The notes: generated by a model not told the origin, from the letters alone. DNA of 64,000 bases from an uncultured Candidatus Saccharibacteria bacterium (GCA_964504205.1 CAZDDE010000001.1:58473-122472); one strand, 5' to 3'. Numbered from the stretch's first letter, positions 9,450 to 36,465 are shown. Translations and numbers: made by a program.

Positions 9450-10150
9450 TTGAACCCGAGATTATCCTTGCAAAACTTTTGCGAAGCGCAAATGTCCCGC
9501 ACGCGCTTTTGTTTACCGGCTTGGATGAAGGGCGCAAAACCAATGCCGCCTTTAATTTTATCAAAGGTTTGCTTACGGAGCGTGCCATGCCATTTGATTT
9601 TTTGCACGTCACAGATTCACCAGTACCAATAGAAAGAATCCGTGATCTAAAGTCAGCTTTTGCGAAGAGTCCATTGGCGGGCGCGCACAAAGCCGCACTT
9701 ATTGCCGATGCGGGCAGTTTCCGCGCGGATGCCGCAAATTCCTTTTTGAAGCTCCTTGAAGAACCCGCCGGCCAAGCGCTTTTTATTCTTATGGCCCATG
9801 CGCGTTCCAGCGTTTTACCGACAATTGTTTCCCGGACGCTCGAAGTTAGGTTTCCAGTGACGGGTAGAATCGGTCAAAAAACGGCCGGGGATGACGAGAC
9901 GTTTAACATCTTTATCGGCGATAACCTGACGGATAAATTGCGCGCAGCGCAAAAATACAGTTTGAAAAATAAATCCGAATTGTTAAGCATTTTAGATGTT
10001 TGGCTTATGAAACTGCGGAGTAAACTTTGTTTAGGCGAAGACATTAATGTTTGTTTTATAAAAAAGATATTGCAGCTGAAAAAAATTATTGTAAGTACCA
10101 ATGCTAATCCACAGCTACAGCTCGAAGAATTATTTGTAAGTTCGCTTTAA
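9446..10150 (+). CDS. holB: DNA polymerase III delta' subunit (clamp loader, AAA+ without a Walker A)
   Basis: HALLFTG (degenerate P-loop as in delta'), SR.. sensor motif (TIVSRT); 4-nt overlap with the upstream gene. Confidence 0.65.
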   Translation: MIEPEIILAKLLRSANVPHALLFTGLDEGRKTNAAFNFIKGLLTERAMPFDFLHVTDSPVPIERIRDLKSAFAKSPLAGAHKAALIADAGSFRADAANSFLKLLEEPAGQALFILMAHARSSVLPTIVSRTLEVRFPVTGRIGQKTAGDDETFNIFIGDNLTDKLRAAQKYSLKNKSELLSILDVWLMKLRSKLCLGEDINVCFIKKILQLKKIIVSTNANPQLQLEELFVSSL

Positions 10151-14067: not shown

Positions 14068-14889
14068 ACGAACTATTGACAAATATATTATTATATGCTA
14101 TAATGGGACTGTAAAATAAAGATACAAAAGTTCCTTGAAACAGAACAAGAGAAGAGAGACCCAACCCGAGGGCATCGGGATATAACCATAAGCAGGTTAA
14201 AGTATATGTTAAATAAGACGGTTGAGAAATCTCTTCTCTAGATGAAGTATCTAAGAAAAGATTTCCCAGCCGTTTTTCATTGCCCTTCCGAAGCTCCCGA
14301 GAGCGAAGGAGGGAGGAGAGAGTAATAAGATGGGTGGACACTAAACAACATATAATTGGTCTTAACCCACATCTTACAAAATTCATCCCGCACTTATTAT
14401 GAACAAGCTACGCTTAGAAACGCAGTCAGTTCATAATAAGTGCGGGACTCATCCTCCATCCTTGGCCCTCGAAGCTTTATGCGAAGTGGGCCTTCTCTCT
14501 AGATACGAGAGAAGATGTGAATTTAAGAGCTTGGGTAGTTCTTTCAAACGAAATAGTCATAGGTGGGGGACAAAGTGTCCTTGATGCAGAATTGAGGATA
14601 TCTCGTCCTTCACCTTCTCCGACTGCTCTGGATAAATTTCAAATCGTCCAGTGAAAGTGGAGGTCCCCTCAAGGTAAGGGAAAGGAGATAGACGTCGGCT
14701 TAGCCGACGTAATCCTCAGCATGGCATGGGTCTCGACCTGGCCATGTCTAAAGGGGCAGGATAACCTGCTCCGCGTGTCCTAACGAAAAGTTAGGGGAGC
14801 GCGTATTGCAAGATACGTAGCTCCCCGCTTCCACCGAATTTCTCACTTGCAAAAGTGGGAGATTCAGAGGAGGAGAGTTCTCTGAGAGA
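14068..14889. ncRNA. ORF-free, highly structured ~820-bp region; candidate large noncoding RNA of unknown class
   Basis: No ORF of 60 aa or more in any frame in an otherwise gene-dense genome. Many perfect or near-perfect local hairpins: 18-bp stem CCCGCACTTATTATGAAC/GTTCATAATAAGTGCGGG at 14383-14445; GCAGG-ataa-CCTGC; CGCG...CCTAAC-gaaaa-GTTAGG...CGCG (GNRA-like loop); GACGTCGGC-tta-GCCGACGT; CATGGC...GCCATG. Confidence 0.4.
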
Positions 14890-24902: not shown

Positions 24903-26768
24903 ATGAGCAAAATTTTAGGAATAGACCTGGGCACAACTAATTCAGCAATGGCAATCATTGAGGCGGGTCAGCCGAGAATCATTGAGAATAAAGAGGGCAA
25001 CCGCACGACACCTTCGGTTGTCGCTATTTCGAAAGCCGGCGAGCGACTTGTTGGCGTGCTTGCAAAACGGCAGGCCGTTACGAATCCCCCAAACACTATT
25101 TATTCAGCCAAACGTCTTATCGGCCGAAAATTTTCTGACGCTGAAGTTCAGCGCGATAAAAAACATTTAAGCTATGAGATTAGAGAATCAAAGGAAAGCG
25201 GCGTTGAAATTAAAATGGGCGAAAAATATTATCGTCCGGCGGAAATTTCCGCGATGGTTTTGGCAAAATTAAAGCAAGATGCCGAAGCCAGACTTGGCGA
25301 AACGATAACTGAAGCAGTTATTACGGTGCCAGCGTATTTTGATGATTCGCAGCGCAAGGCAACAAAGGACGCCGGAGAAATAGCCGGATTTACAGTGAGA
25401 AGAATAATTAACGAACCGACCGCGGCCGCTCTTGCTTATGGCTTGGAGAAGAAAAAGAACGAGCAAATAGTTGTTTATGATTTTGGCGGCGGAACATTTG
25501 ATGTTTCGGTGCTTGAAGTTTCCCAAGATACAGTTGAAGTTAAATCAACCGGCGGAGATACGCACCTTGGGGGAGATGATTTTGATCAGAAAATAATTGA
25601 CTGGTTGACTGCCGAGTTCAAAAAACAAGAAGGCATCGATCTTTCTAGAGATACCCTTGCCCTGCAGCGTCTCAAGGATGCTGCGGAAAAAGCTAAGCAC
25701 GAGCTGTCAAGTTCGCTGGAAACTGCTATTAATATCCCATTTATTACATCGGATGCAAATGGCCCCAAGCACCTAGATTTGAAATTCGCGCGCGCAAAAC
25801 TGGAGGAGTTGGTGGGAGAATTTATCGTGCGGGCCGAAGAACGTACGCGCGCTACAGTTAGCGATTCTGGTTTTAAGATAGAAGATATTAACCAAGTTGT
25901 TTTGGTTGGCGGACAAACGCGGATGCCGGCTATTCAGGAATCGGTTAAAAAGATGTTTGGCAAAGAGCCGCACATGGGCATTAATCCCGATGAGGTTGTG
26001 GCTGTCGGCGCGGCAATCCAAGGCGGCATCTTTCAAGGTGAAGTTAAAGACGTTTTGCTTTTAGATGTTACGCCCCTTTCCCTTGGCATTGAAACTCTTG
26101 GCGGCGTTATGACAAAACTTATTGAAAAAAATACAACTATCCCGACTGCAAAGTCCCAAGTATTTTCAACTGCCGCTGACAATCAGCCATCGGTTGAAAT
26201 TCATGTCTTACAAGGAGAACGCGAAATGGCTTCTGACAACAAAACGCTCGGACGTTTCATCCTGGATGGCATCCCTCCGGCTCCGCGCGGTCTGCCGCAA
26301 GTTGAAGTAACTTTTGATATAGATGCCAACGGCATTTTAAGCGTTAAAGCAGTTGACAAAGCAACGAACAAGGAACAGTCCATTCGCATTGAGGCATCTT
26401 CCGGTTTATCCAAAGAAGATATTGAAAAAATGAAGAAAGAAGCCGCGCAATATGCCGAAGAAGATAAGAATAATCGCGAGAAAGTTGAAGTCAAGAACAG
26501 CGCAGAGCAGATTGTTTACTTGGCGGAAAAATCCTTGCGCGAAGCTGGCGATAAAGTGAGCGAAGATATAAAAAAAGAGGTTCAGGAAAAAATTGACGCG
26601 CTTAAAAAAGTTAAAGATGGCGATGACGTTGAAGTTATAAAAGCTAAACTTCAAGAGCTCAGTACAACCTTGCAAAAAATAGGGCAGGCAATGTATCAGC
26701 AATCTCAACAACAACAGTCGCCGCCAAATCAGGATAATCCGCCAGGTAATGATGGAAAAAAGGAATGA
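24903..26768 (+). CDS. dnaK: molecular chaperone DnaK (Hsp70)
   Basis: [18 protein letters not shown] and the full Hsp70 nucleotide-binding and substrate-binding domains; 621 aa. Confidence 0.97.
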
Positions 26769-26787: not shown

Positions 26788-27861
26788 ATGAAAAATTATT
26801 ATGAGATTCTCGGCGTCCCTAAAAACGCAAGCAAGGAAGAAATCAAGCAAGCGTATCGTAAACTTGCGCATCAATATCATCCCGACAAAGGGGGCGACGA
26901 GAAAAAATTTAAGGAAATTAACGAAGCATATCAGGTTCTTGGCGATGAACGCAAAAAGGCCCAGTATGATCAGTTCGGGTCGTCTTTTGGGTCGCAAGGA
27001 TCTGCGGGTTTTGAGGGTTTTGATTTCCGAAATTTTTCCGGATTTGGCAGAGAGGGGTTCACCCAGGACTTTGATTTAGGCGATATTTTCTCCGAATTTT
27101 TCGGCGGAGGCGCGCGGAGCCAAACGCAGGCGAGAAAGAATGTTGGCCAGCATATCCAGATTGATATTATGATTACTTTGGAAGAGGCGTATCGGGGAAC
27201 TGAAAACACATTTTCGTTGAAGAAGTATAATATGTGCGACAGGTGCCGGGGCGAAAAAAATGAGCCGGGCAGTGGATTTAAAAATTGCAAAAATTGCGGC
27301 GGCACGGGAGAAATACGCAGACAGCAAAGGATTATGTTTGGCGCATTTACGCATGTTTCAGAATGTCCGGAGTGCCGAGGCGCCGGGAAGATTCCCGAGA
27401 AAAAATGCGAGAAATGCCATGGTTTAGGACGTATGCTGTGCGTAGAAAGCATCGCGATCAGGATACCGGCTGGTATACATTCCGGGGAATCAATAAGGGT
27501 GGCCGGCAAAGGGGAAGCGGGAGAAGGCGGTTACGGCGATCTCTACGCAAATGTTCACGTCAAAGATCACAAGCTTTTTGCCCGTGATGGCGATAATATC
27601 TTTTCACAAATCGCGCTGGCGTTTTCCCAAGCGGCGCTGGGCGCGGATATTTTAGCGAAAACACTTGCGGGCGATGTGTACATTAAAATACCCTCTGGTA
27701 TTCAATCGGGCGAGATGATAAAATTGAATGGTAAGGGCATGCCGCGCTTGCATGGATCGGGATATGGCGATCACTATGTTAAAATTACAGTAACTACTCC
27801 CCAAAAGTTTTCCCGCAAAGCGCGGGAATTATTCGCGGAATTAAGAAAGGAGGGCATTTAA
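26788..27861 (+). CDS. dnaJ: molecular chaperone DnaJ
   Basis: J-domain with HPD (YHPDKGGD), a Gly/Phe-rich region and four CxxCxGxG zinc-finger repeats. Confidence 0.95.
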   Translation: MKNYYEILGVPKNASKEEIKQAYRKLAHQYHPDKGGDEKKFKEINEAYQVLGDERKKAQYDQFGSSFGSQGSAGFEGFDFRNFSGFGREGFTQDFDLGDIFSEFFGGGARSQTQARKNVGQHIQIDIMITLEEAYRGTENTFSLKKYNMCDRCRGEKNEPGSGFKNCKNCGGTGEIRRQQRIMFGAFTHVSECPECRGAGKIPEKKCEKCHGLGRMLCVESIAIRIPAGIHSGESIRVAGKGEAGEGGYGDLYANVHVKDHKLFARDGDNIFSQIALAFSQAALGADILAKTLAGDVYIKIPSGIQSGEMIKLNGKGMPRLHGSGYGDHYVKITVTTPQKFSRKARELFAELRKEGI

Positions 27862-28382
27862 TGCAATATCTAGTGGCACTATCTCAAAATTTTGTCCTAT
27901 CTTGGGATCTCGTTATAGTGGTTTTCTTATTCTTTGCCGCTTTTTTCTATGGTTTTAGCGCAGGATCGCGCAAGATCGGCACTCTCCTTGTAAGTTTCTA
28001 TTTTAGTTATACGCTTATCGGGATTGCGCCGTATCTTGAGTTTTTTCTTGATGAAATGTCCGATTATCGCGCCGCGATCATGAAAGTTGCGCTTTTTGTT
28101 CTGCTAGGTTTTGTTTTATTTTTTCTGCTTACTGGCTCAATCCTGCGCTCTTCGCTTGGATTGCCGAAGAAAGAAGATAATCAGTGGTGGCACTTTTTGC
28201 TGCTGGGCATAGTTTCTGCCGGATTTTTAATTTCTTCAGCGCTTGTATTTACACCCGAGTCGTTTTATGATAAACTTTCTACTATCACGCGCGAGAGTTT
28301 TTTGGAAAACAATGCGCAATTTTGGTGGGCGCTGGGGGGAGTAGCCGCGCTTGTAATTTTACGAAAAACGAAAAAAGGGTAG
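27861..28382 (+). CDS. small integral membrane protein, CvpA-like topology
   Basis: 173 aa with four predicted transmembrane helices; no catalytic motifs. Confidence 0.4.
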   Translation: MQYLVALSQNFVLSWDLVIVVFLFFAAFFYGFSAGSRKIGTLLVSFYFSYTLIGIAPYLEFFLDEMSDYRAAIMKVALFVLLGFVLFFLLTGSILRSSLGLPKKEDNQWWHFLLLGIVSAGFLISSALVFTPESFYDKLSTITRESFLENNAQFWWALGGVAALVILRKTKKG

Positions 28383-28501
28383 CGACAATGTACTCTCGCC
28401 TTCGGCGAGAGCCCGGGGAAACCTTTGTTATGCCGTCCCGCTTCGCGGGACATGGCAAACTAAGGTAGGTTTCCCGCAAAAAGCCAAGCAGTTGGCTTTT
28501 T
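28383..28501 (+). ncRNA. compact structured element (three nested hairpins, two with a UUCG loop) ending in a terminator-like hairpin, immediately 5' of tRNA-Lys
   Basis: CTCTCGC-CTTCGG-CGAGAG; long-range GGGAAACCT...AGGTTTCCC stem enclosing GTCCCG-CTTCG-CGGGAC; then GCCAA-gcagt-TGGC followed by TTTTTG. Confidence 0.4.
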
Positions 28502-28575
28502 GCCCCTATAGCTCAACGGCAGAGCAATGGCCTTTTAAGCCACTGATGAAGGTTCGATTCCTTCTGGGGGCACCA
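28502..28575 (+). tRNA. tRNA-Lys (anticodon UUU), with encoded CCA
   Basis: Manual cloverleaf: acceptor GCCCCTA/TGGGGGC, D-stem GCTC/GAGC, anticodon stem TGGC/GCCA with loop CTTTTAA, T-arm GAAGG-TTCGATT-CCTTC; 74 nt. Confidence 0.9.
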
Positions 28576-28703
28576 GATAATACTTTCACGATCTTGGGGG
28601 AAAGAAAACTTTGGGATGAATGACTAAATTTGGTTGATACTAAATAAGGGAAAGTAGCTCTTTTCCAAGCTCATTTGGTTGTTTTCTGCCATGATTCGCG
28701 TGT

Positions 28704-29696
28704 ATGAAAACACTACACGCGAAATCTCCTTGTTGCCGAGGGAATATAAATCGTTTCGGCAAGCGTCGCAGACAATGTTCGATATGCAAGCGCACATGGC
28801 GCATCCGGCAAAAAAGCCGTGGCAGGAAGCGGAAACGCGTTGATCGCCGACTGGTTCACCGGATACTCGTCGAGCATCGGACTTTTCAGCATCACTGTCG
28901 CAAAGGAGCGATTTCACAAAGCGGTTTCAGCAAACGATTTTCAAAAGCCATCCGTTCCGATCCGCAACTCGGATCGCGCCTGCGTTTTCCATCTGGCCCA
29001 TACGCGCTATTGGGCGATGGCTTGTATTTCAAATTCAAACGGATGGACTGGGTAATGTATGTTATGGCGGTGAAGCCGGTTAAATCTCGTCGAGCTTTCT
29101 TTCTTGATCCTGTCTTGCTTCAAGGAAAAGAATGTTATGAGCGATGGCGCATGGCTTTAGATACACTGCGACCAGAGACCAAGAAGCGCATTAAGGCCTT
29201 TGTTTCCGATGGCTTTCGAGGATCCAAGCTCATCGCCAAGGAAGATGACTGGATTCATCAACGCTGTCATTTCCACCTCTTGATGGCGCTGATCCGCAGA
29301 CACGGCAGGCGATCGTATCGCACCAAGGGCGCGGGTATTCGTGAAAAATTGTTGGGAGTTGTTCGGATATTGCTTACTACTCCGGACAGTACCGCTTTGA
29401 AAAGGCAGACGCTTAAAGCCCGACGACTAATCTCACATCCGCTTTGTCCGCCTTGGATCCGCATCCAGACCGTTGAGTTTCTTCGCACCCTCGATGATTT
29501 CCGCGCTTATCTTATACATCCAGAATTGAATCTGCCGACAACCAACAACTCAATCGAATCCAGCGGAAAGATTATTAGAAAAGCAACAAGTACCGCGCGA
29601 ACACCGCAGTCGGTTCTACTTCGCGCGACGGCGTTTCTGCGGCTCAAGAAATCTATTACTTGCAACGGCAAATCTTCAACCAAATTACGTCAATGA
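28704..29696 (+). CDS. IS1-family-like DDE transposase with an N-terminal InsA-type zinc finger
   Basis: CC..(11)..QCSICKRTW resembles the InsA CxxC...CxxC-RKTW finger; central ..VSDGFRGSKLI.... and C-terminal TTNNSIESSGKIIRK recall DDE transposases (IS1/IS66-like); 11-bp inverted repeats AATTTGGTTGA at 28627-28637 and 29677-29687 (reverse complement); sits next to a tRNA. Confidence 0.55.
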   Translation: MKTLHAKSPCCRGNINRFGKRRRQCSICKRTWRIRQKSRGRKRKRVDRRLVHRILVEHRTFQHHCRKGAISQSGFSKRFSKAIRSDPQLGSRLRFPSGPYALLGDGLYFKFKRMDWVMYVMAVKPVKSRRAFFLDPVLLQGKECYERWRMALDTLRPETKKRIKAFVSDGFRGSKLIAKEDDWIHQRCHFHLLMALIRRHGRRSYRTKGAGIREKLLGVVRILLTTPDSTALKRQTLKARRLISHPLCPPWIRIQTVEFLRTLDDFRAYLIHPELNLPTTNNSIESSGKIIRKATSTARTPQSVLLRATAFLRLKKSITCNGKSSTKLRQ

Positions 29697-29840
29697 ACCC
29701 AAAACTTTTCATAAGATTCTTTCCAAGAGGCGGCGCGTGCCGCATCTTGACTTTTATGGTCTGATATACTATCTTTGATTGAAGCTTTGGCATGGTGCTG
29801 AAGCAGGAATCAACCTGTACCTTGAAAGGAGGATAGACAA

Positions 29841-30473
29841 GTGGAAAGAATCTACGCATTCCTTCCGTCCGTTTTGGTCATGGCCTGTATCGCTGGTGTC
29901 ACGTTTCTCTACGTGAAGTGGGTCATCAAGCGGTTCGGCGACAACTTCAAGAGCGTCGAGTGGCATGAGAAGAATCAGCGGAAGGTCATCTGGGCCGTCG
30001 GCACGCCACTGGCCCATGTGTGGGCACCAGCAGTGGAGGAATTGATCTTCCGCGCTCCACTCATCATCGCGTTTGGTGCGATGTCTTCAGTCGCATGGTA
30101 CGGAGTTTTCGCGTCAAGCGGGCTCTTCGCGTTATCACACTGGTTCGGAAAGAAAATCTGGATGCCAGATATTCTTTCCGCGCGAGAGAATGGCAACCAC
30201 AAGACAGACGATGTGGTGGCAGAAGCGAATCGGCTCCACGCAGAGGAGGGGAAGATGATTATGGTGCGTAAGGTGCTCCATGTTGTCTTCACTCTACCCC
30301 TCGGCATCTTGGCTGGATACTACGGTATCAAGTATCAATCCATCTGGGTGGCCTTCGGGATTCACTCGGTGTGGAACCTCGTCATGCCGATCGTGGTTTC
30401 AATCCTCATGCTCTTGGGAGTGCTCACCCTCGTCGGCATCTCGTCTCTGTGGGACAGAGTAAGGTCGTGGTAA
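29841..30473 (+). CDS. CPBP-family (CAAX protease / Abi) intramembrane metalloprotease
   Basis: EELIFR (EExxxR motif 1), FALSHWF (FxxxH motif 2), HSVWN (HxxxN motif 3); GTG start with an AAGGAGG RBS. The gene uses mainly G/C-ending codons (GTC, ACG, TTC, GGC, AAG), whereas the flanking housekeeping genes use mainly A/T-ending codons (AAA, GAA, ATT). Confidence 0.75.
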   Translation: MERIYAFLPSVLVMACIAGVTFLYVKWVIKRFGDNFKSVEWHEKNQRKVIWAVGTPLAHVWAPAVEELIFRAPLIIAFGAMSSVAWYGVFASSGLFALSHWFGKKIWMPDILSARENGNHKTDDVVAEANRLHAEEGKMIMVRKVLHVVFTLPLGILAGYYGIKYQSIWVAFGIHSVWNLVMPIVVSILMLLGVLTLVGISSLWDRVRSW

Positions 30474-30488
30474 CTCAGCAAACAGTCA

Positions 30489-30545
30489 AGCGAGCACAAC
30501 TCGCTCCATATAGCTCCTCGCTCACGCGCGGAGCTATTTCTTTTT
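30489..30545 (+). terminator. rho-independent terminator downstream of the CPBP protease gene
   Basis: AGCTCC-tcgctcacgcgc-GGAGCT followed by ATTTCTTTTT. Confidence 0.6.
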
Positions 30546-30844
30546 AATAATTTGAAAGAACAAAGAATTTGCCGCCAAGACTGAAATTCGTTAGAATTTC
30601 AGTAATCCGAATGCCGCCAAAGAAAAACTTGAAATTGTCATTCGTGCGGCTCCGCCGCCTTTCCGGATTTTCGCGGGGGGACTTCCTCGCTCCGACGCAG
30701 GTCGGAGCGAAAGCGGTTCGGACTAATTCAAGTATCCTACATTTTAATCCGATATTATTAAGAAGGAGTACGCCGAGCCACTCGCTAAGAGGGTTTAAGC
30801 CCGAGCAGAACGCCACCTTAAACCTCTTCTGACCTGTCTTAAAT

Positions 30845-30882
30845 AAAAAAAACGTTCTGCCCGAGAATAATACGGCAGAACG
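30845..30882 (-). terminator. rho-independent terminator for the minus-strand gene 30907-31335
   Basis: CGTTCTGCC / GGCAGAACG 9-bp stem with an 8-nt T-run on the minus strand (A8 on plus at 30845-30852). Confidence 0.7.
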
Positions 30883-30906
30883 TGCCTTACGCAATAGTTT
30901 TGTTTA

Positions 30907-31335
30907 TTAATCCTGCGCATCGCCTTTTTGCCAGGGAAGCTTTAGGACTTCACAAACTTTATACTCCCCGGTCTCCTCTTCCCTTTCAATACAACCAACA
31001 AGTTTTCCTTCCTCCGTCTTCTCTACGCACCAAGAAACGACAAGGAGCGCGTATTTTATCAATTCATCAGCGGTTTTACTGCCAGTTTTCGCGATTAAAT
31101 TGTTCAATGACTCTGTAGCAGCAAGACCACTTTGCTCCCTTGACGTTATTGTTACGCATCTTGCGCACCATTCTCCTATTTCCCCATCTTCTGTTCTATA
31201 TATTCGCAGCCTTCTCTGACATAATGGGTGGACGTAAAAGCTAGCAACAGAGCGACCCGGCTTAACAGATATATCCGTTTCCCCACAGTCTATTATTCCT
31301 AACCTTCTCGCTTTGGCGTTTATGTTGCCAAACAT
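30907..31335 (-). CDS. hypothetical Cys-containing protein. Start placed at the internal ATG with a GGAGG RBS; the track's GTG start at 31401 has no RBS.
   Basis: 142-164 aa; strong GGAGG 5 nt upstream of ATG 31335; HPLC....EWCARC cysteine cluster; no family recognised. Confidence 0.45.
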   Translation of the reverse strand: MFGNINAKARRLGIIDCGETDISVKPGRSVASFYVHPLCQRRLRIYRTEDGEIGEWCARCVTITSREQSGLAATESLNNLIAKTGSKTADELIKYALLVVSWCVEKTEEGKLVGCIEREEETGEYKVCEVLKLPWQKGDAQD

Positions 31336-31401
31336 CTCAACCTCCGCTGTATCTTTGGCTAATTTACAACCTAGGGCTAGATTAACATTTCTTATGCCCA
31401 C

Positions 31402-31429
31402 ATGTCAAGGCATTACGCCGCTTGACATA
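31402..31429. promoter_or_regulatory. palindromic operator/divergent promoter element ATGTCAAG-N11-CTTGACAT. Each arm carries a TTGACA -35 hexamer on the opposite strand.
   Basis: Perfect 8-bp inverted repeat between divergent genes 30907-31335 (-) and 31505-31798 (+). Confidence 0.5.
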
Positions 31430-31504
31430 CGCTTTATGCTGTGCTTCAATGGAGTCATAGTAGCTCGATAACAGCACATTTCACAACAGAAAGGAGCGAA
31501 AGTT

Positions 31505-31798
31505 ATGGCAAAGAAGATTCCCGGACTGAAACTGATCAGGCACAACGCCAGTGGCGTAGACTTGCCGGACGACCCGTCCTTCCCATTCAAGCTGGAGGCC
31601 AACTTCAGCTCCCCGAAGTTCATGGAGTTCGCGTTCGTTTCGATATGCGGTGGGAGCGAGGAAATCGTCGTGCGGGGCATGACGAAGGAGTCGCTGGACG
31701 AGTTCGTGGAGATGAACCATCTTAGCACTCATGCGAGGCTCCGTGGGCTCACGATAACCGGTCCCGACGGCATCGTGGAGCAAATACCGAAAGTCTAG
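31505..31798 (+). CDS. hypothetical small protein
   Basis: 97 aa; AAAGGAG RBS 7 nt upstream; mainly G/C-ending codons like the CPBP gene; preferred over the overlapping minus-strand ORF 31405-31728. Confidence 0.55.
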   Translation: MAKKIPGLKLIRHNASGVDLPDDPSFPFKLEANFSSPKFMEFAFVSICGGSEEIVVRGMTKESLDEFVEMNHLSTHARLRGLTITGPDGIVEQIPKV

Positions 31799-32028
31799 CT
31801 CCGCAACTCGAAGTGAGCCGAGCAAATGTTCACGCCAGGGCCCCTCGCGGAATTCAATTCTGCTTGGGGCTCTACTTTTTTCTAAAATTGAAAGATAATC
31901 ATGTTTTATCGGGCAGGGCCGAGATATGTGATATTGTTCGCTTGACACAAAGTATCGGCGGTGTTAATGTTAAGATAGTTTAGATAATTTACAGTACATG
32001 GCACATTAAAAATTTTGAGGGAGGTAAT

Positions 32029-32826
32029 ATGACTACTCCAGCCGACCGCAACAAGCAAGAAATAGTTTTTTTGGGTGAGCTATTAGAGCTATTAGGCCAC
32101 GGTGGTGCGATTGTAAAATGGCAGCGCGATGAACTAAAGGAAGTATTGCTTGCCAATCTTATACCCGATCGTGTTTCGGCAAAGTATACAGCAGTATTTG
32201 TCGTTGATATGATCAATGATTTCTGCAGGCCCGGCGGAGCTTTGTACGATCCGCGCATCGAAGCGATTATTCAACCTGTGGTTGACTTGCTTAAATCCGC
32301 GCATGCGCTCGGAGTTGAAAAATTTATCCTTGTTCAGGAGGGCCATTCGCCCGACGCAAAAGAGTTTAACCAGTTTCCTGCGCATGGCGTATGGGGGACT
32401 GAAGGTGCCGAAGTAATTGATGAAATAACGCGGCTTCCTTTTGCCCAAAAGTTTGTTGTTTTTCGCAAAAATGCCATCCCGCCGATATTTGCCCGCGAGC
32501 AAATCATGATTGCAAACCGCGTTCCCGCGCTTGGTATGACCATGGAGCAGTTTATGCGCCGTCTTGACGCAAAACTAGTCATTAACATTGGCGACTGCAC
32601 GGACCTTTGTGCGCGTGAAATGCCGATGTATCAAAAGTATTGGGCTAATCAGTTCCAGCGCGATTTGCGGATTATTGTCCCCGAAAACTGCGTCGCCACA
32701 TTTCACTTGGCAGTGGAAACCGCCAAACAACTCGGATTAAAATCGCATCCGGCGGAAGTAATGCATCTTCTCGCCCTTTATGAAATGTCCCGTCACGGAA
32801 TCGAAGTTGTGAAAAGGTTAGTGTAA
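32029..32826 (+). CDS. pncA: isochorismatase-family cysteine hydrolase, nicotinamidase-like
   Basis: AVFVVDMINDFC (Asp of the catalytic triad), GDCTDLC (catalytic Cys), strong GAGGGAGG RBS; 1-nt overlap with pncB. Confidence 0.7.
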   Translation: MTTPADRNKQEIVFLGELLELLGHGGAIVKWQRDELKEVLLANLIPDRVSAKYTAVFVVDMINDFCRPGGALYDPRIEAIIQPVVDLLKSAHALGVEKFILVQEGHSPDAKEFNQFPAHGVWGTEGAEVIDEITRLPFAQKFVVFRKNAIPPIFAREQIMIANRVPALGMTMEQFMRRLDAKLVINIGDCTDLCAREMPMYQKYWANQFQRDLRIIVPENCVATFHLAVETAKQLGLKSHPAEVMHLLALYEMSRHGIEVVKRLV

Positions 32827-34061
32827 TGGAACCGATTTTCAATTCACAGCTCGATGTAGATTTCTATAAATTTCCGATGGCACAGATGGTTTTTCATAAG
32901 TATCCCGATGTTCCCGTACGATATGCGCTAACGAACAGAACATCTGGCGTGAATCTAGCAGATCATATTCGCCAAGGGGATGTGCGATATGAACTGGATC
33001 ATGTACGCACGCTCCGATTTGGCAATAGTGATTTGCATTATCTTCGCGGCACAAATGAACATGGCATGCGCATGTTTGCGGAGGATTATCTTGATTTTCT
33101 GCGCACACTTCAACTGCCTCCTTACGACCTTTTTGTTTCTGCCGGCCAATTAAAACTGGAGTTTAGCGGCCGCTGGTGCGAGGCGATATATTGGGAGACG
33201 ATCGCTCTTTCTATAATTAACGAATTATATAACCGTTCGCAATTAAATCGGTTGAGCAAATTTGCACAGGATTTAGTATATGCCGAAGGCAAACAGCGAC
33301 TCGGAAAAAAGATCATACAATTGCGCCACGAGGCTTTTCCTGTGATGTTTTCTGATTTCGGCACGCGCCGCCGCTTTTCCCGCGAATGGCAAGATTATGT
33401 AATCGGCGTCTTGGTTGAAGAATTGCCGAAAAACTTTATTGGAACGTCCAATGTCGCGTTTGCCCAAAAGTATAACATAGTGCCGATGGGTACATCTGCA
33501 CATGAGCTTTATATGGCGATGGGCGCTATAATGGAAGCGCGCGGTAGAAGTGTTAAAGAAGCCCAACAGCAAGTTATGCAGGACTGGTGGGATGAATTCG
33601 GCTGGGGCTTGTCTATAGCTCTTACAGATACGTGGGGCACAGATTTTTTCTTTGAGCAAATGACTCATGAGCAGGCAAGAGACTGGAAGGGTTTAAGACA
33701 AGATTCTGGAGATCCTTTTGCGTTTGGGGAGAAAGCCTTGCGCTTTTACAAATTTCACAACGTTGATTCGCAGGGGAAAATGATTATTTTCAGTGATGGA
33801 TTAGATGTCGCGACGATGATTGAATTAAACAAACGGTTCCGTGATTACATACGTGTTAGTTTCGGATGGGGTACAAATCTCACTAACGACCTTGGAATTC
33901 CAGCGCTTTCGCTTGTGGTAAAGCTCATCGAAGCGATGGGCCGAGGAACCGTAAAGTTAAGCGATAATCTCGCGAAAGCCGTCGGCAGGGCAGAAGATAT
34001 AGAACGTTATAAACGAGAACTTGGCTACACAAATACATTCTTTCAAAACTGCAAATACTAA
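32826..34061 (+). CDS. pncB: nicotinate phosphoribosyltransferase
   Basis: SDFGTRRR, GTSAHE and a C-terminal S.GL motif typical of NAPRTase. Confidence 0.85.
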   Translation: MEPIFNSQLDVDFYKFPMAQMVFHKYPDVPVRYALTNRTSGVNLADHIRQGDVRYELDHVRTLRFGNSDLHYLRGTNEHGMRMFAEDYLDFLRTLQLPPYDLFVSAGQLKLEFSGRWCEAIYWETIALSIINELYNRSQLNRLSKFAQDLVYAEGKQRLGKKIIQLRHEAFPVMFSDFGTRRRFSREWQDYVIGVLVEELPKNFIGTSNVAFAQKYNIVPMGTSAHELYMAMGAIMEARGRSVKEAQQQVMQDWWDEFGWGLSIALTDTWGTDFFFEQMTHEQARDWKGLRQDSGDPFAFGEKALRFYKFHNVDSQGKMIIFSDGLDVATMIELNKRFRDYIRVSFGWGTNLTNDLGIPALSLVVKLIEAMGRGTVKLSDNLAKAVGRAEDIERYKRELGYTNTFFQNCKY

Positions 34062-34135
34062 CCCCGCTTGCCAAAGGCGGGTTTTTTGTTAGGATGATCT
34101 TAGAACCTTTAGCAAAACGCAAAACGGAGGCTAAG

Positions 34136-34768
34136 ATGGGAAATCGGGCAGTTTGGCTTGCGGCTGTTGACCATATAACCTATGTTGTTAGCCCACATAC
34201 GATCAAGCGATGGGCATGGTATTATACCGAAATCTTGGGCGGAAAACTCACTAAGAGAATAGATGATGTTGACCCCAAAGGCAAATCTAGTATGATGCTT
34301 TGGGAGATCGATTTTGGCAGTTTTGCAATCGCTCTTGTCGCTGGGATAGATCGTAAAGAGAAGTCGCACATCACCACTTTTTGGCGTATGCACGGCGACC
34401 GCACTGTTCAGCACGTCGCCTTTCGACCGCGAGGCGAAGATCTAGATGGCCTTAATGCACGCCTTGAGCAATACGGCGCTCGCTTTCAAGGCAAGCTTCT
34501 GGTTCGACAGGAAGGCGATGATTTAGTGAAACAAATCTTCTTAGCGCCGGCAGATGAGATGGTTAATCCGGCGGAGTCTAGTTTTGACGAGCTCCAACGC
34601 AGACCGGGCAAAGATTCACCAATAACATTTGATGAAAATGTCGCGGAAAATCTATACCACTCAGCTCAAGAACGGATGACGAGCGGTACCTGTGTGCCCA
34701 TGGTTGACTGGTCGCTGATGCCCAAGGACTGGGAGCCGCCAGAGCCAGAGCCAGAACCAGAAAGCTAG
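34136..34768 (+). CDS. hypothetical protein, possibly VOC/glyoxalase-like, with a C-terminal PEPEPE tail
   Basis: GGAGG RBS before ATG 34136 (the track start at 34094 lacks an RBS); weak similarity to beta-alpha-beta-beta-beta VOC modules; low confidence in function. Confidence 0.4.
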   Translation: MGNRAVWLAAVDHITYVVSPHTIKRWAWYYTEILGGKLTKRIDDVDPKGKSSMMLWEIDFGSFAIALVAGIDRKEKSHITTFWRMHGDRTVQHVAFRPRGEDLDGLNARLEQYGARFQGKLLVRQEGDDLVKQIFLAPADEMVNPAESSFDELQRRPGKDSPITFDENVAENLYHSAQERMTSGTCVPMVDWSLMPKDWEPPEPEPEPES

Positions 34769-34810
34769 GGAAACCTAGCTTTTTTACTTCTCCTGTGATA
34801 TATTGTCCAC

Positions 34811-35473
34811 ATGACGCATCAAGATCAAAATATCAAAGTTGCCGTTGACATTGTCATTTTTACAATACTGGATAATGCCCTGCAGGTTATTTTAATTCAA
34901 ATGAAGAAACGGCCATTGACAAAAAAATGGGCTTTCCCGGGCGGGCTGATCGCGAATTCTGAATCTCTTGATGACGCGGCGAAACGAGAACTTGCCGAAA
35001 AAGCCGGCGTAAAAAATGTCTATCTTGAACAGCTTTATACTTTCGGCCACCCTAAGCGCGATCCGTATGGCCGGGTTGTATCTTGTGCCTATTTTGCGCT
35101 TATCAACAGCGAGAGCATCAAATTAGAGACAACCGAAAAATACTCTGGCGTTAAATGGTTTAATGTTAAAAAACTTCCAGAATTTGCGTACGATCATGTA
35201 AAGTTAGCAAAATATGCCCTCCAGCGCCTGCACTGGAAGCTTGAATATACTAATGTTGTCTATAGCCTTCTGCCGCGGCGTTTTACGCTTTCCAATTTGC
35301 GCCGTGTTTACGAAATAATTCTTGGTCGTAAAATAGACCGGCGCAATTTTCAGCGCAAAGTCCTTTCACTGAATTTGCTTAAAACAACACGGCGAAGACA
35401 ATTTGGCAAACATAGACCGGCAGTACTTTATGAATTTAAAATACGGAAACCAGCGATTGTGGAGGTATTGTAG
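34811..35473 (+). CDS. nrtR: NrtR-type Nudix-related transcriptional regulator of NAD metabolism
   Basis: N-terminal Nudix fold (GGLIANSESLDDAAKRELAEKAGV) fused to a C-terminal winged-helix domain (FTLSNLRRVYEIILGRKIDRRNFQRKV) characteristic of NrtR; sits within the pncA-pncB...nadK cluster. Confidence 0.72.
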   Translation: MTHQDQNIKVAVDIVIFTILDNALQVILIQMKKRPLTKKWAFPGGLIANSESLDDAAKRELAEKAGVKNVYLEQLYTFGHPKRDPYGRVVSCAYFALINSESIKLETTEKYSGVKWFNVKKLPEFAYDHVKLAKYALQRLHWKLEYTNVVYSLLPRRFTLSNLRRVYEIILGRKIDRRNFQRKVLSLNLLKTTRRRQFGKHRPAVLYEFKIRKPAIVEVL

Positions 35474-36465
35474 TGAACATCGAAAAATGGCGGAGCAATT
35501 TTATCCGATGCCCAAGCCGTTTGTGCAAAAATCCCAAAATGGGCTGGACTGTTGTGCGACAACTCGGTAACGGTCTTCGTGAGTATAAATGCTCTTGTTG
35601 CGCGAGGTCATTCTACTTTAATGTAAAGACTTGGCAGATGTTTCGCTGGCATCCCAAATATAGTTCCTTGAAATATCTGCCGTTTGCAAAGAGAATGGAT
35701 GAAACGGATCAAAACACCATTAATAGATTCTCGAGCCGCGCGCGAAAACTCGGCATTACCCCTGAATTTAATGCGCAAGATTGCGATTTTCTGCTCGTTC
35801 TTGGCGGCGATGGCACCATGCTTAAAGCGGTGCATAACTTTGCTGAATTCCATAAACCCTTTGTGGGTATAAATTATGGTCATCGCGGATTTCTGCTTAA
35901 CGAAAAGGACGAATTTTTCTTTGAAAAAATCCGCGACGAGGATTATGATATTTTCAGCGCGCCCTTACTTGAGGCAATAATCACAATGGAAGACAACAGC
36001 CAAGTTCGCGAACTCGCCCTGAACGACATCATAATCAGTGAAGATAGCGGACAAAGCGCCTTGCTTGAAGTCATGATCAACGACGTCATTCTTGACAGCG
36101 GCCTATTTGGCGATGGGTTGATTGTAAGCACGCCTCTTGGCTCCACGGCATACACAGCTAATGCCGGCGGCGTGCCAATAGCGCCAACCCTGCCAGTCCT
36201 TGAACTTACCCCGATTGCTCCTCAACCGCGGAATCGCATACCGCTCGTTGTGCCGGAAACGAGCATCGTTACGATAAAAGCGCTTGAATTGCCGAAACGC
36301 AAGGTAAAAGTTAATCAGGGGAGTATTTTTCAGCATAGTGATGTGTCCAAGGTAGAAGTGCGCCTTGCAAAGGAACGTGTCGAGTTAGTATTCTTTAAAC
36401 CGCGCGATATATCTTGGGACAACTTTTTCCTTGAGCGATTTTGCGAAAAAGTATATAAAGTATAA
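35473..36465 (+). CDS. nadK: NAD kinase with an N-terminal C4 zinc-ribbon extension
   Basis: GGDGT, NYGHRGFL (NxGxxGFL) and DGLIVSTPLGSTAYTANAGGVPI motifs; the N-terminal 40 aa CPSRLC...(17)...CSCC resemble an InsA-type transposase zinc ribbon. Confidence 0.85.
   Translation: MNIEKWRSNFIRCPSRLCKNPKMGWTVVRQLGNGLREYKCSCCARSFYFNVKTWQMFRWHPKYSSLKYLPFAKRMDETDQNTINRFSSRARKLGITPEFNAQDCDFLLVLGGDGTMLKAVHNFAEFHKPFVGINYGHRGFLLNEKDEFFFEKIRDEDYDIFSAPLLEAIITMEDNSQVRELALNDIIISEDSGQSALLEVMINDVILDSGLFGDGLIVSTPLGSTAYTANAGGVPIAPTLPVLELTPIAPQPRNRIPLVVPETSIVTIKALELPKRKVKVNQGSIFQHSDVSKVEVRLAKERVELVFFKPRDISWDNFFLERFCEKVYKV

What the first reader, a model, noticed from the sequence alone, without database searches (positions are those of the whole stretch)
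28383..31990. tRNA-Lys-associated island: structured RNA, IS1-like transposase, and a GC3-rich cargo with a CPBP protease and a palindrome-controlled divergent gene pair
Immediately 3' of tRNA-Lys(UUU), a classic integration site, lies a transposase with an InsA-type zinc finger (QCSICKRTW) and DDE-like core, flanked by 11-bp inverted repeats AATTTGGTTGA. It is followed by about 2.2 kb whose genes use mainly G/C-ending codons (GTC, TTC, GGC, AAG), clearly unlike the host. These encode a CPBP/CAAX-family intramembrane protease (Abi-like, often immunity or abortive-infection related) and two small unknown proteins. The two small genes are transcribed divergently from a perfect palindrome ATGTCAAG-N11-CTTGACAT, whose arms are opposite-strand -35 boxes. 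A degenerate copy of the tRNA 3' end (GGAATTCAATTCTGCTTGGGGCTC, 31849-31872, about 15/22 identical to GGTTCGATTCCTTCTGGGGGCAC) sits at the far edge and could be an eroded attR. The cargo function is unknown. It may be an immunity, defense or regulatory module.
Basis: partly seen in the sequence, partly recalled or inferred. Interest (0 to 1): 0.6.

Follow-up and report, generated by a model that had tools for sequence, protein, structure and literature searches.

The report
Decayed mobile-gene patchwork beside tRNA-Lys
Next to a lysine tRNA gene of an uncultured CPR-type bacterium lies a patchwork of imported DNA: an insertion sequence and small foreign gene cassettes, one ending in a recombination scar that other CPR genomes show intact beside a serine recombinase, so the island is ordinary but the cassette system may be undescribed.

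Summary

**Confirmed**
- tRNA-Lys(UUU) lies at 28502-28575.
- A strongly folding 119-nt spacer precedes it.
- The 330-aa transposase, an intact CPBP protease gene, the divergent small-gene pair and the 8-N11-8 palindrome are all present.

**Corrected**
- The transposase is IS256/Mutator-type, not IS1. The IS spans 28604-29710.
- Only the CPBP gene (GC3 0.71) and orf97 (0.79) are GC3-rich against a host mean of 0.46±0.05. orf142 is host-like.
- The "eroded attR" matches the tRNA no better than chance. It is the loop of orf97's terminator.
- The palindrome is two back-to-back copies of this organism's extended -35 box (CTTGACA).

**New**
- dnaK-dnaJ-tRNA-Lys is conserved in at least 55 of 80 related CPR loci, and the DNA after the tRNA always differs.
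- The spacer after the CPBP gene carries a junction (A5·A3 then element X). The same junction closes unrelated gene cassettes in four other CPR genomes.
- Twice that junction lies next to a large serine recombinase, whose own coding sequence contains the A and B motifs.
- In one genome (L102) an orf97 homologue is such a cassette.

The window holds no recombinase and no left junction, so I read it as a fixed relic. The recombination mechanism is inferred, not shown.

The parts
28383..28501 (+). 119-nt hairpin-rich spacer between orf173 and tRNA-Lys. It has two UUCG-type hairpins, one nested in a long stem, then an A5-stem-T5 hairpin that abuts the tRNA. Function unknown.
   Evidence: Minimum free energy -59.2 kcal/mol, z -6.7. 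No Rfam match. Absent from the closest relative L016, where the orf173 stop abuts the tRNA. No other copy in the window.
28502..28575 (+). tRNA-Lys(UUU). It marks the conserved end of the dnaK-dnaJ-(orf173) block and the start of the variable region.
   Evidence: ARAGORN and Rfam, 71 bits. dnaJ is followed by tRNA-Lys(UUU) within 2.5 kb in at least 55 of 80 related loci.
28604..29710 (+). Insertion sequence, 1107 bp, IS256/Mutator-type with an N-terminal Cys-rich segment. Terminal inverted repeats GAAAAyTTTGGGATGAATGAC... lie at 28604-28637 and 29676-29710. Transposase ORF 28704-29696.
   Evidence: Ends defined by four other copies at 74-89% identity with unrelated flanks. 879 homologues, mostly on contigs of 1.1-1.3 kb. 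Pfam PF00872 in 8 of 16 members. NCBIfam IS256 models match at about 1e-4. Invariant D105, D169, E285 and R292. No target-site duplication at any copy.
29746..30546 (+). CPBP (Rce1-like) intramembrane protease gene unit. It comprises the extended -35 box CTTGACT at 29746-29752, a Shine-Dalgarno sequence, the CDS 29841-30473 and an intrinsic terminator 30510-30546. GC3 0.706, so foreign-looking.
   Evidence: Pfam 8e-12. Catalytic motifs intact. GC3 z about +4.6. Promoter-like site. A 42% homologue also lies 1 kb after tRNA-Lys in L069, but with native composition.
30562..30639 (+). Cassette-end motif. A5 (AAAGAATTTGCCGCCAAG, 30562-30579) is followed by a 32-nt hairpin insertion (30580-30611) flanked by a TGCCGCCAA repeat. 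Then comes GCCGCCAAAG plus A3 (AAAAACTTGAAATTGTC), 30612-30639.
   Evidence: 28/28 and 17/17 identical to the 5' coding region of a serine recombinase in L013, and 27/28 to that of L102. The same motif follows unrelated genes in L013, L035 (three times), L072 and L102. nhmmer E 2e-7.
30640..30747 (+). Element X, about 100 nt. It has two or three hairpins and a conserved tail, ..GCGGTTCGGACTAATT... In other genomes it stands where a tRNA 3' end stands. Here it is the outer half of the junction.
   Evidence: nhmmer E 4e-21. Seven copies in five loci. Hairpin 2 has three different stem sequences. In L102 the same S module follows both X and the genuine tRNA-Arg.
30845..31409 (-). orf142 unit. It comprises the -35 box TTGACA (complement of 31403-31408), a GGAGG Shine-Dalgarno sequence, the CDS 31335-30907 and a terminator hairpin 30882-30853 with a T-run. 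It encodes an orphan protein with an invariant H36/C39/C57/C60 zinc-ribbon-like motif. Composition is host-like (GC3 0.41).
   Evidence: Only itself among 5.8 billion clusters. Two remote homologues among 1.84 billion representatives. AF2 model pLDDT 50, unusable. No Pfam, NCBIfam, PHROG or PADLOC hit.
31421..31895 (+). orf97 cassette remnant. It comprises the promoter (CTTGACAT 31421-31428, with -10 TTCAAT 31445-31450), the 5' UTR, the CDS 31505-31798 (GC3 0.786), the 3' UTR and terminator T46 (stem 31840-31844 / 31866-31870, T-run, ...CTAAAATTGAAAGA).
Evidence: About 70 homologues at 52-78% identity, strongly conserved. DNA homology to L102 runs 31474-31887, through the UTRs and terminator. 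There the gene lies between RC(X)|B and A5·A3|X next to a 499-aa serine recombinase. GC3 exceeds the host in all six genomes checked. The terminator resembles the one after CPBP (D1).
31941..32028 (+). Promoter and leader of the pncA-like gene (CTTGACA 31941-31947, 17 nt, TAATGT 31965-31970). Host-like composition resumes from here.
   Evidence: Read. CTTGACW list. pncA-like GC3 0.48.

Best explanation
The stretch between tRNA-Lys and the pncA-like gene is a decayed mosaic of independently acquired mobile DNA. It sits at a lineage-wide hot spot and is not one island with one function.

**Components**
1. An IS256/Mutator-type insertion sequence.
2. A compositionally foreign CPBP protease gene. 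Its 3' end still carries a hybrid recombination junction, cassette half-site A5·A3 joined to chromosomal element X.
3. An orphan zinc-ribbon gene of native composition on the other strand.
4. A foreign 97-aa gene with its own promoter, UTRs and terminator. In another CPR genome the same unit is a complete cassette.

**Proposed mechanism (inferred, not shown)**
- Small circular cassettes carry a site of the form A5·A3|B.
- A large serine recombinase inserts them into a palindromic, tRNA-3'-end-like site (RC(X)·X) next to tRNA genes.
- This produces RC(X)|B ... cassette ... A5·A3|X.
- Repeated events build arrays.

**State in this window.** There is no recombinase. The left junction is missing; an IS now occupies the start of the variable region. 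Only one A|X junction survives. The genes are therefore fixed passengers, each transcribed from its own consensus promoter.

**Gene functions.** The CPBP protein is a catalytically intact membrane protease. The biological roles of orf97 and orf142 remain unknown.
For: **Hot spot**
- dnaJ is followed by tRNA-Lys in at least 55 of 80 loci, and no downstream gene is shared.
- L016 has a 43-nt perfect tRNA 3' repeat and a gene with GC3 0.75 against a flank of 0.33-0.41.
- L072 and L035 share the backbone tRNA-Lys ... dinB, with about 1 kb (one cassette) and about 5.5 kb (several small gene units) in between.

**Composition**
- CPBP has GC3 0.706 and orf97 0.786, against a host mean of 0.46±0.05.

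**Junction**
- A5·A3 is 28/28 and 17/17 identical to L013. By contrast, IS copies in the same two genomes are 74% identical, and the orf97 units of the window and L102 are 67% identical.
- The A5·A3-X order follows five unrelated genes: window CPBP, the L013 DUF5654-like gene, the L072 PsbP-like gene, L035 pyrFE and the L102 orf97 homologue.
- The full architecture, LSR gene - S - RC(X)|B - cassette - A5·A3|X, occurs in two independent loci: L013 (next to tRNA-Leu) and L102 (tRNA-Arg).
- The L013 fragment matches Pfam Resolvase at 2.9e-15. The L102 protein is 499 aa, with a Cys-rich motif (CASCGCS...YYRC) read as a zinc ribbon.
- L035 shows direct cassette-to-cassette junctions (A5|CAGTAAA...), a duplicated 86-aa cassette and 66-nt tandem junction-like repeats.

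**Assembly breaks**
- Two independent assemblies of this genome break at 30605 and 30653, beside A3. That is what repeated DNA produces.

**Independent promoters**
- Five of the window's 23 CTTGACW boxes fall in these 3.6 kb.
Against: - Only five loci (seven X copies) carry the junction. All were found incidentally, and no systematic census was possible.
- No empty site (RC(X)·X) and no circular junction (A3|B) has been observed.
- The identity of A5, A3 and B to the recombinase's own coding sequence is unexplained. In the CDS they are separated by a 17-nt palindrome that is absent from the junctions.
- The window lacks the B, S and RC(X) modules and any recombinase. The link between the window and the system therefore rests on one 186-nt junction plus homology of the orf97 unit.
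- A CPBP homologue at 42% identity sits after tRNA-Lys in L069 with native composition. DnaJ identity to the same locus is 48%, so vertical inheritance of that gene is possible.
- Three of seven orf97 contexts show no tRNA nearby and no junction motif.
Confidence: 0.6

Rival explanations
1. Classical tRNA-gene genomic island. A single element was integrated by a (now lost) tyrosine integrase at the tRNA-Lys 3' end. It is bounded by the tRNA and an eroded attR at 31849-31872 and carries one functional immunity or defence module.
For: The position directly 3' of a tRNA is typical. The closest relative, L016, does show a true 43-nt tRNA 3' duplication at the same place. Two genes are compositionally foreign.
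Against: - There is no integrase in the window.
- The attR candidate is at chance level. It is the loop of a terminator that is conserved with the orf97 unit in L102 and L013.
- No tRNA repeat occurs anywhere in the 64 kb.
- Composition is mosaic: 0.71, 0.41, 0.79.
- The three genes are not linked in any other locus.
- PADLOC and PHROGs give no hits.
Confidence: 0.1
2. Mostly native DNA. On this view, CPBP, orf142 and orf97 are resident genes of the lineage. The high GC3 reflects selection (expression level, mRNA structure) rather than transfer. The A5·A3-X sequence is a REP-like repeat or a terminator/UTR element with no role in recombination. Only the IS is mobile.
For: - A CPBP homologue sits in the same relative position in L069 at 42% identity and native composition.
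- orf142 is compositionally native.
- orf97 homologues have GC3 above the host in every genome. That could be an intrinsic property of the gene.
- X folds into hairpins with compensatory changes, as a transcript element might.
Against: - dnaK, which I take to be a highly expressed gene (my assumption), has GC3 0.41.
- orf97 sits in wholly different contexts in each genome, and in L010 within a 700-bp GC-rich islet.
- A5, A3 and B are identical to parts of a recombinase CDS.
- The inverted X copies bracket exactly one gene beside that recombinase in two independent genomes.
- L072 and L035 differ by cassette content between the same flanking genes.
Confidence: 0.15
3. The junction is the wreck of a serine recombinase gene that once lay after the CPBP gene. 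On this view, an autonomous serine-recombinase element integrated here and its gene then decayed to about 45 nt. The shared boundaries in other genomes reflect a common ancestral deletion derivative that spread, like a MITE derived from its parent.
For: - A5·A3 equals recombinase codons 28-42.
- Cassette left ends (B plus B-ext) equal codons about 44-50 fused to the C-terminal coding end (..KNIGSNHIL..) of the L102 recombinase.
- So cassette ends look like a recombinase gene with its middle removed.
Against: - The order is circularly permuted (B ... cargo ... A), not A ... B.
- Homology starts sharply at A5 in every copy, with unrelated terminators upstream.
- Intact recombinase genes coexist beside the junctions.
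- This reading is compatible with, rather than opposed to, trans-mobilised non-autonomous cassettes.
Confidence: 0.15

Closest known systems
tRNA-gene genomic islands built by serial site-specific integration (Islander-type islands; tycheposons of Prochlorococcus, bioRxiv 10.1101/2020.12.28.424599)
   Same: Variable DNA piles up on the 3' side of particular tRNA genes in small streamlined genomes. Newer elements push older ones inward. Degenerate elements, fragmented integrases and partial tRNA-like repeats are left behind. A minority of tycheposons use large serine recombinases.
   Different: - The units here are single small genes of 0.5-2 kb, without replication modules.
- The boundary is not a plain partial tRNA. 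It is a conserved A5·A3 / B motif joined to a roughly 100-nt hairpin element X.
- The motifs are identical to parts of the recombinase coding sequence.
- The window itself has no integrase and no tRNA repeat.
Integron gene-cassette arrays (IntI tyrosine recombinase, attI, attC)
   Same: Arrays of mostly single-gene cassettes in one orientation are separated by a conserved junction with hairpin-forming sequence. The stem of that hairpin varies while the structure is kept. A recombinase gene sits at one end (L035, L102, L013).
   Different: - The associated recombinase is a large serine recombinase (Pfam Resolvase), not IntI.
- I saw no GTTRRRY core site (by eye only).
- The cassettes carry their own promoters.
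- The platform is tRNA-adjacent.
- Membership is not supported.
Large serine recombinase (serine integrase) mobile elements. My own examples from memory, not checked here: phiC31/Bxb1-type phages, Tn4451 TnpX, SCCmec CcrAB.
   Same: A roughly 500-aa recombinase with an N-terminal resolvase domain and a Cys-rich motif read as a zinc ribbon lies adjacent to hybrid junctions. Those junctions look like the attL/attR products of two sites with dyad character.
   Different: - The mobilised unit does not contain the recombinase.
- The cassette half-sites duplicate sequence from inside the recombinase gene.
- The inferred chromosomal site is a long near-perfect palindrome resembling a tRNA 3' end.
- None of this has been tested biochemically.
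IS256 family / Mutator-superfamily insertion sequences
   Same: Single DDE transposase with profile similarity to IS256 and Transposase_mut. Invariant D-D-E with spacings of 64 and 116 residues and a basic residue 7 after E. Imperfect terminal inverted repeats of about 33 nt. Many copies in metagenomes.
   Different: - Shorter than the 1.2-1.5 kb I recall as typical for IS256 (1.1 kb; 330-aa transposase).
- It has an N-terminal CC...C..C segment.
- Scores are below the curated cut-offs.
- No 8-9-bp target duplication, which I recall as typical of the family, at any of five copies.
CPBP / Rce1-like ("Abi") intramembrane proteases
   Same: Pfam PF02517 match above threshold. All three catalytic motifs are present.
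   Different: No partner gene (bacteriocin, immunity or ABC transporter gene) is adjacent, so the specific role cannot be assigned.

Membership tests
IS1 family | Profile match to the IS1 transposase (InsA zinc-ribbon/HTH and DDE_Tnp_IS1) and the InsA-InsB frameshift arrangement | tested here: not met
   No IS1-type family appears among the Pfam or NCBIfam hits at E<=0.1 for the window protein, or at E<=0.05 for 16 family members. A single uninterrupted 330-aa ORF.
IS256 / Mutator superfamily | Profile similarity to the IS256 / Transposase_mut models | tested here: inconclusive
   NF033543 at 1.3e-4 and NF048019 (Zn variant) at 1.7e-4, both far below the curated 150 bits. PF00872 at 0.029 for the window protein, but it hits 8 of 16 homologues, best 6.6e-7. 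Precomputed PF00872 appears on several homologues.
IS256 / Mutator superfamily | Conserved DDE triad with a basic residue about 7 after E | tested here: met
   Invariant D105, D169, E285 and R292 in 16 sequences down to 56% identity.
IS256 / Mutator superfamily | Terminal inverted repeats and an 8-9-bp target-site duplication (the duplication length is from my own knowledge of the family) | tested here: inconclusive
   33-nt inverted repeats at 79% are present. No direct repeat flanks any of five copies.
CPBP / Rce1-like intramembrane protease | Pfam PF02517 above the gathering score, plus the EExxxR, FxxxH and HxxxN/D motifs | tested here: met
   45.7 bits against a cut-off of 22.4. EELIFR at 66, FALSH at 96, HSVWN at 175.
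tRNA-integrated genomic island (tyrosine integrase type) | Integrase gene inside the island | tested here: not met
   No integrase or recombinase ORF lies in 28.3-32.1 kb. tblastn with the L102 serine recombinase finds nothing in the 64 kb. No search with a tyrosine-integrase profile was run outside the finding region.
tRNA-integrated genomic island (tyrosine integrase type) | Direct repeat of the tRNA 3' end at the distal boundary (attR) | tested here: not met
   The claimed repeat is at chance level. There is no repeat in the window. The feature is met in relative L016, with a 43-nt repeat at 100%.
Integron | IntI tyrosine recombinase and attC sites with R''/R' core (RYYYAAC / GTTRRRY) | tested here: not met
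   The associated recombinase is of the Resolvase type. I saw no GTTRRRY core in the junctions by eye. No attC covariance model was run.
Large-serine-recombinase cassette system (proposed here) | Cassette bounded by RC(X)|B on the left and A5·A3|X on the right | tested here: inconclusive
   The right junction is present (30562-30747). The left junction, the S module and B are absent from the window.
Large-serine-recombinase cassette system (proposed here) | Cognate large serine recombinase in the genome | tested here: not met
   None in the 64-kb window. The other 122 kb of the source contig could not be read.
Large-serine-recombinase cassette system (proposed here) | Recombination between the cassette site and the chromosomal site | not testable with these tools
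   This needs read-level junction evidence or biochemistry.
Known anti-phage defence systems | Match to a PADLOC model | tested here: not met
   No hit at E<=0.1 for the transposase, CPBP, orf142 or orf97.

The most novel reading that the evidence does not exclude
CPR/Patescibacteria may possess an undescribed, integron-like gene-capture system run by a large serine recombinase. Single-gene cassettes with their own promoters would be inserted next to tRNA genes at a palindromic, tRNA-3'-end-like hairpin site (X). The cassette half-sites (A5·A3 and B) would be copies of sequence inside the recombinase's own gene. The window's CPBP and orf97 genes would be two captured cassettes, and the orf97 family (no Pfam match, no fold match) a frequent passenger.
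Probability: 0.3. Interest if true: 0.75.

Novelty: new variant of a known kind. Interest (0 to 1): 0.5.

Why it matters

The junction it preserves is what matters. As far as I know, how CPR bacteria, with tiny genomes and few recognisable mobile elements, acquire flexible genes is poorly understood. A serine-recombinase-driven cassette platform at tRNA genes would be one concrete mechanism. It is directly testable:
- the att-like half-sites are defined to the base;
- a full-length recombinase sequence is in hand (L102);
- the predicted excision and empty-site junctions can be searched for in existing read sets.

It would also add a natural single-gene cassette system to the serine integrases already used in genome engineering. 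Finally, it would mark the strongly conserved 97-aa orf97 family as cargo worth characterising.

Tried and rejected
- **GTDB genome scan with pncB.** It returned only 50-59% relatives in unrelated phyla, so there was no synteny information.
- **Metagenome scan with DnaJ.** No relative was closer than 61%. The test "do close relatives have tRNA-Lys directly followed by pncA" could therefore only be answered at long range. None of 32 loci has pncA or pncB after the tRNA.
- **orf97 function.**
  - No Pfam hit for 52 members.
  - PDB sequence search gave nothing significant.
  - Foldseek against BFVD gave nothing at E<=0.001.
  - afdb50 was not available.
- **orf142.**
  - It is an orphan.
  - An exhaustive HMMER search found two real remote homologues.
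  - The AF2 model had pLDDT 50, so it was not searched.
  - The genomic context of homologue P0215 is not on record.
  - tblastn found no orf142 relative beside any orf97 homologue.
- **Rfam.** A permissive threshold over 28200-32100 found nothing beyond the tRNA.
- **Viral contigs.** An exact search for the A motif gave zero hits. Recombinase relatives there (L100, L101) were truncated and uninformative.
- **Other modules in the window.** A search for the S, B and B-ext modules and for further X or A5 copies was negative.
- **CRISPR considered and rejected.** The 66-nt tandem repeats in L035 are junction-like sequence (TTTTTATTTCTGAAAGAAAC...), not a repeat-spacer array.
- **tRNA-like RNA considered and rejected.** X has no cloverleaf, and ARAGORN calls nothing there.
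- **Literature.** No paper describing such a system in CPR was found.

Full report
**What is in the window**

The window is a 45% GC genome of CPR/Patescibacteria type. The only source-given names among the protein matches point that way: "Minisyncoccia bacterium" for a transposase homologue and "Patescibacteria group bacterium" for an orf97 homologue.

Around the finding the gene order is as follows:
- dnaK 24903-26768
- dnaJ 26788-27861
- a 173-aa membrane ORF, 27861-28382
- a 119-nt spacer
- tRNA-Lys(UUU) 28502-28575
- a transposase ORF, 28704-29696
- a 210-aa ORF, 29841-30473
- 433 nt without a convincing ORF
- a 142-aa ORF on the minus strand, 30907-31335
- a 97-aa ORF, 31505-31798
- a pncA-like isochorismatase gene (32029-32826), pncB, a NUDIX/NrtR-like gene and nadK

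Three public contigs carry the identical sequence, so the arrangement is not an assembly accident.

**Checking each observation**

*The 119-nt spacer.* It folds at -59.2 kcal/mol against -35.1±3.6 for shuffles (z -6.7). It matches no Rfam family even at E<=5. It is absent from the nearest relative, L016, where the orf173 stop abuts the tRNA.

*The transposase.* It is real and very widespread: 879 homologues, mostly on contigs of 1.1-1.3 kb, which is the signature of a multi-copy repeat.
- Four other copies at 74-89% identity, with unrelated flanks, fix the element at 28604-29710. The terminal repeats are 33 nt, not 11.
- It is not IS1. The only profile similarities are to IS256 and Mutator: NF033543 and NF048019 at about 1e-4, and PF00872 in 8 of 16 family members, best 6.6e-7.
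- The family keeps an invariant D105-D169-E285 triad with R292.
- Because the IS ends at 29710, it does not carry the downstream genes.
- None of the five copies has a target-site duplication. That is unexplained.

*The CPBP protein.* It matches Rce1-like at 8e-12, and all three catalytic motifs are present.

*Composition.* GC3 is 0.706 for CPBP and 0.786 for orf97, against 0.46±0.053 for genes of at least 150 aa in the window. orf142 is 0.41 and the transposase 0.49. The "cargo" is therefore a compositional mosaic, not one block.

*The proposed attR.* 17% of shuffles match the 23-nt tRNA end as well, and 63% do for the 3' half. Nothing in the 64 kb repeats the tRNA.

*The palindrome.* It is there. 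However, CTTGACW is the over-represented extended -35 box of this genome: 23 occurrences against 9.9±3.1 expected, with none of 100 shuffles reaching 23, and many just upstream of genes. The right arm, CTTGACAT, travels with orf97 in another genome that has no left arm. It is best read as two back-to-back consensus promoters. An operator role is not excluded but is not needed.

**The comparative picture**

No genome closer than 61% DnaJ identity (83% for DnaK) could be found. At that range:
- dnaJ is followed within 2.5 kb by tRNA-Lys(UUU) in at least 55 of 80 loci.
- What follows the tRNA is different almost every time, and never pncA or pncB.

In the closest relative, L016, the tRNA is followed after 61 nt by a perfect 43-nt copy of its own 3' part. 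A different gene with GC3 0.75 comes next, against 0.33-0.41 for dnaK, dnaJ and orf173. The 3' flank of this tRNA is thus a hot spot for GC-rich foreign DNA across the lineage.

One exception is L069. It has tRNA-Lys, then a LAGLIDADG-type gene, then a CPBP homologue at 42% identity with native composition. For that gene, old synteny cannot be excluded.

**The hidden junction**

The 433 nt after the CPBP gene fold unusually well on both strands (z -6.0 and -4.7). Two independent assemblies break inside it, at 30605 and 30653.

A blastn search against the loci fetched for other reasons gave an unexpected hit. Window 30612-30639 is 28/28 identical to L013 5398-5425, and 30562-30578 is 17/17 identical to L013 5390-5406. 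In L013 this sequence lies inside the 5' coding region of a serine recombinase: MKYIIYARKSTEEDDRQVLSIEAQLVELKEFAAKEKLEIV..., Pfam Resolvase 2.9e-15.

In the window the two pieces are called A5 and A3. They are separated by a 32-nt hairpin insertion flanked by a TGCCGCCAA repeat. They are followed by a roughly 100-nt hairpin element, which I call X (30640-30747).

The same order, gene then terminator then A5·A3 then X, closes unrelated genes elsewhere:
- in L013, a DUF5654-like membrane protein, next to tRNA-Leu;
- in L072, a PsbP-like secreted protein;
- in L035, pyrF-pyrE;
- in L102, L103 and L104, an orf97 homologue at 72% identity.

These are documented. Profile searches recover exactly these copies and no others in about 1.2 Mb of fetched loci.

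The A motifs are far better conserved than their surroundings. A3 is 100% identical. By contrast, the orf97 unit shared by the window and L102 is 67% identical, and the IS copies shared by the window and L013 are 74% identical. This argues for a functional site rather than a dead relic.

**The architecture where it is complete**

In L102 the order is:
1. tRNA-Arg
2. an S module
3. a 499-aa large serine recombinase on the minus strand, with a resolvase domain and a Cys-rich motif (CASCGCS...YYRC) read as a zinc ribbon
4. S again, inverted
5. X inverted
6. motif B (AAAAACTGCCAAAGAAC) plus B-ext
7. the orf97 promoter, gene, 3' UTR and terminator
8. A5·A3
9. X

L013 shows the same plan around a different gene, next to tRNA-Leu, with a copy of the IS inserted at the B side.

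L072 has tRNA-Lys | B - gene - A5·A3 - X - dinB.

L035 has the same tRNA-Lys ... dinB backbone with about 5.5 kb in between. This stretch holds:
- several small gene units;
- A5 junctions at 11912-11960, 13703-13749 and 14685-14733;
- direct cassette-to-cassette joints (A5|CAGTAAA...);
- a duplicated 86-aa cassette;
- four 66-nt tandem junction-like repeats.

X ends in ..GTTCGAACTATTTTAAGAATAGAGCACCA. It is followed by the same S module that follows the genuine tRNA-Arg, so X stands where a tRNA 3' end stands. Its second hairpin has three different stems: GCTCCGAC/GTCGGAGC, CGCCGCC/GGCGGCG and TTGCCG/CGGCAA.

**Interpretation and its limits**

The junction types are A3|X and RC(X)|B. These are what recombination between a cassette site A3|B and a palindromic chromosomal site RC(X)·X would produce. 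The adjacent large serine recombinase is the obvious catalyst.

On that reading:
- the window's CPBP gene is a captured cassette that keeps its right junction;
- orf97 is a second cassette that has lost A5·A3-X. Its terminator, 31840-31895, resembles the one after CPBP (repeat D1), the L013 unit, the L102 unit and, by eye, one in the L035 array;
- orf142 is a native-looking orphan between them.

The window has no recombinase, no B, no S and no inverted X. It is a relic.

Several things remain unshown:
- any recombination event;
- the empty site;
- the circular form;
- the reason why A5, A3, B and B-ext are copies of the recombinase's own coding sequence. In the CDS, A3 and B are separated by a 17-nt palindrome that is absent from the junctions. 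B-ext equals the C-terminal coding end.

The sample is five loci, all found by accident. I therefore give the serine-recombinase cassette reading 0.6. The stronger claim of a distinct integron-like system gets 0.3.

**The cargo**

*orf97* belongs to a tightly conserved family: about 70 clusters at 52-78% identity, with invariant K9, I11, D22, D23, P27 and R57.
- It has no Pfam match.
- A confident α/β model (pLDDT 88) has no informative neighbour in PDB or BFVD.
- Its GC3 exceeds the host's in all six genomes checked.
- In four of seven contexts it lies within 3 kb of a tRNA gene.
- Relatives at 46-50% identity sit on IMG/VR contigs of 111-512 kb.

*orf142* has only two remote homologues among 1.84 billion representatives. 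They share H36, C39, C57 and C60, which suggests a zinc ribbon.

PADLOC and PHROGs give nothing for any of the genes. The three genes are never found together elsewhere. The "immunity/defence module" idea has no support.

**Comparison with known systems and verdict**

The nearest described phenomena are:
- tRNA-linked islands built by serial integration, such as tycheposons, a minority of which use large serine recombinases;
- integron cassette arrays, by analogy only.

Literature searches found no description of such a system in CPR.

The finding as written is a mostly ordinary variable region with several mislabelled parts. The junction it contains is a lead to a possibly new variant of recombinase-driven gene capture.

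Noticed in passing
L016:9943-10488: The closest relative has a perfect 43-nt direct repeat of the tRNA-Lys 3' part (9979-10021 and 10080-10122). The second copy is preceded by a 29-nt insertion in what looks like a copied anticodon arm. A partial gene with GC3 0.75 follows at the contig end.
   Followed up: partly
L013:5388-5459 and L102:4400-4470 (minus strand): The large serine recombinase coding sequence contains A5-A3, then a 17-nt palindrome (GCCTCGCTGTGCGAGGC or GCCTCTTTTCAAGAGGC), then B. A homologue at 75% protein identity (L100) has a different palindrome at the same place (GCTTCCTTCGAGGAAGC). The ends of the cassettes copy these coding stretches.
   Followed up: partly
L035:16490-16750: Four tandem 66-nt repeats (TTTTTATTTCTGAAAGAAACAAAGTTCTTGAGCCGAAGCCCCGCTTAGCGGGGCGAAGGCGAAAGG) lie just before dinB at the end of the cassette region. 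They resemble empty cassette junctions rather than a CRISPR array.
   Followed up: no
L035:11555-11960 and 14330-14740: A whole small cassette (5' leader, 86-aa ORF, terminator and A5 junction) is present twice in the same array at high identity.
   Followed up: no
L069:2206-3069: A LAGLIDADG-type homing-endonuclease-like ORF (Pfam 5e-7) begins 8 nt after tRNA-Lys in another relative. The only other CPBP homologue found in these loci follows it.
   Followed up: no
window 32029-36465: In the GTDB species representatives, the best relatives of pncB, from the pncA-pncB-NUDIX/NrtR-nadK NAD-salvage cluster, are 50-59% identical. They lie in Entotheonellaceae, Aenigmatarchaeota and Latescibacterota, not CPR. 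The cluster may itself be an older acquisition despite its host-like GC3.
   Followed up: no
window, whole (e.g. 29746, 31403, 31421, 31941, 39494, 45209, 46136, 59917): CTTGACW is strongly over-represented (23 occurrences against 9.9±3.1 expected) and often sits just upstream of genes. This points to an extended -35 consensus for this organism.
   Followed up: partly
window 28604 / 29710; L012-L015: None of the five copies of the IS256-like element is flanked by a target-site duplication. In both the window and L013 the IS sits at the upstream edge of a cassette, next to an AAAGAAAA-type motif that resembles its own terminal repeat.
   Followed up: partly
L096-L099 (IMG/VR contigs of 111-512 kb): orf97 relatives at 46-50% identity occur on very large contigs classified as viral. 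These could be huge phages or misclassified CPR genomes.
   Followed up: no
L010:5600-6400: An orf97 homologue (GC3 0.73) lies in a roughly 700-bp GC-rich islet (52-58% GC) within a 41% GC genome. It starts about 680 nt downstream of tRNA-Gln and has no A/X motifs.
   Followed up: partly
window 30580-30611: A 32-nt hairpin (CTGAAATTC-GTTA-GAATTTCAG plus tail) is inserted between A5 and A3 and flanked by a TGCCGCCAA direct repeat. L013, L035 and L102 have different hairpin insertions at the same point.
   Followed up: no
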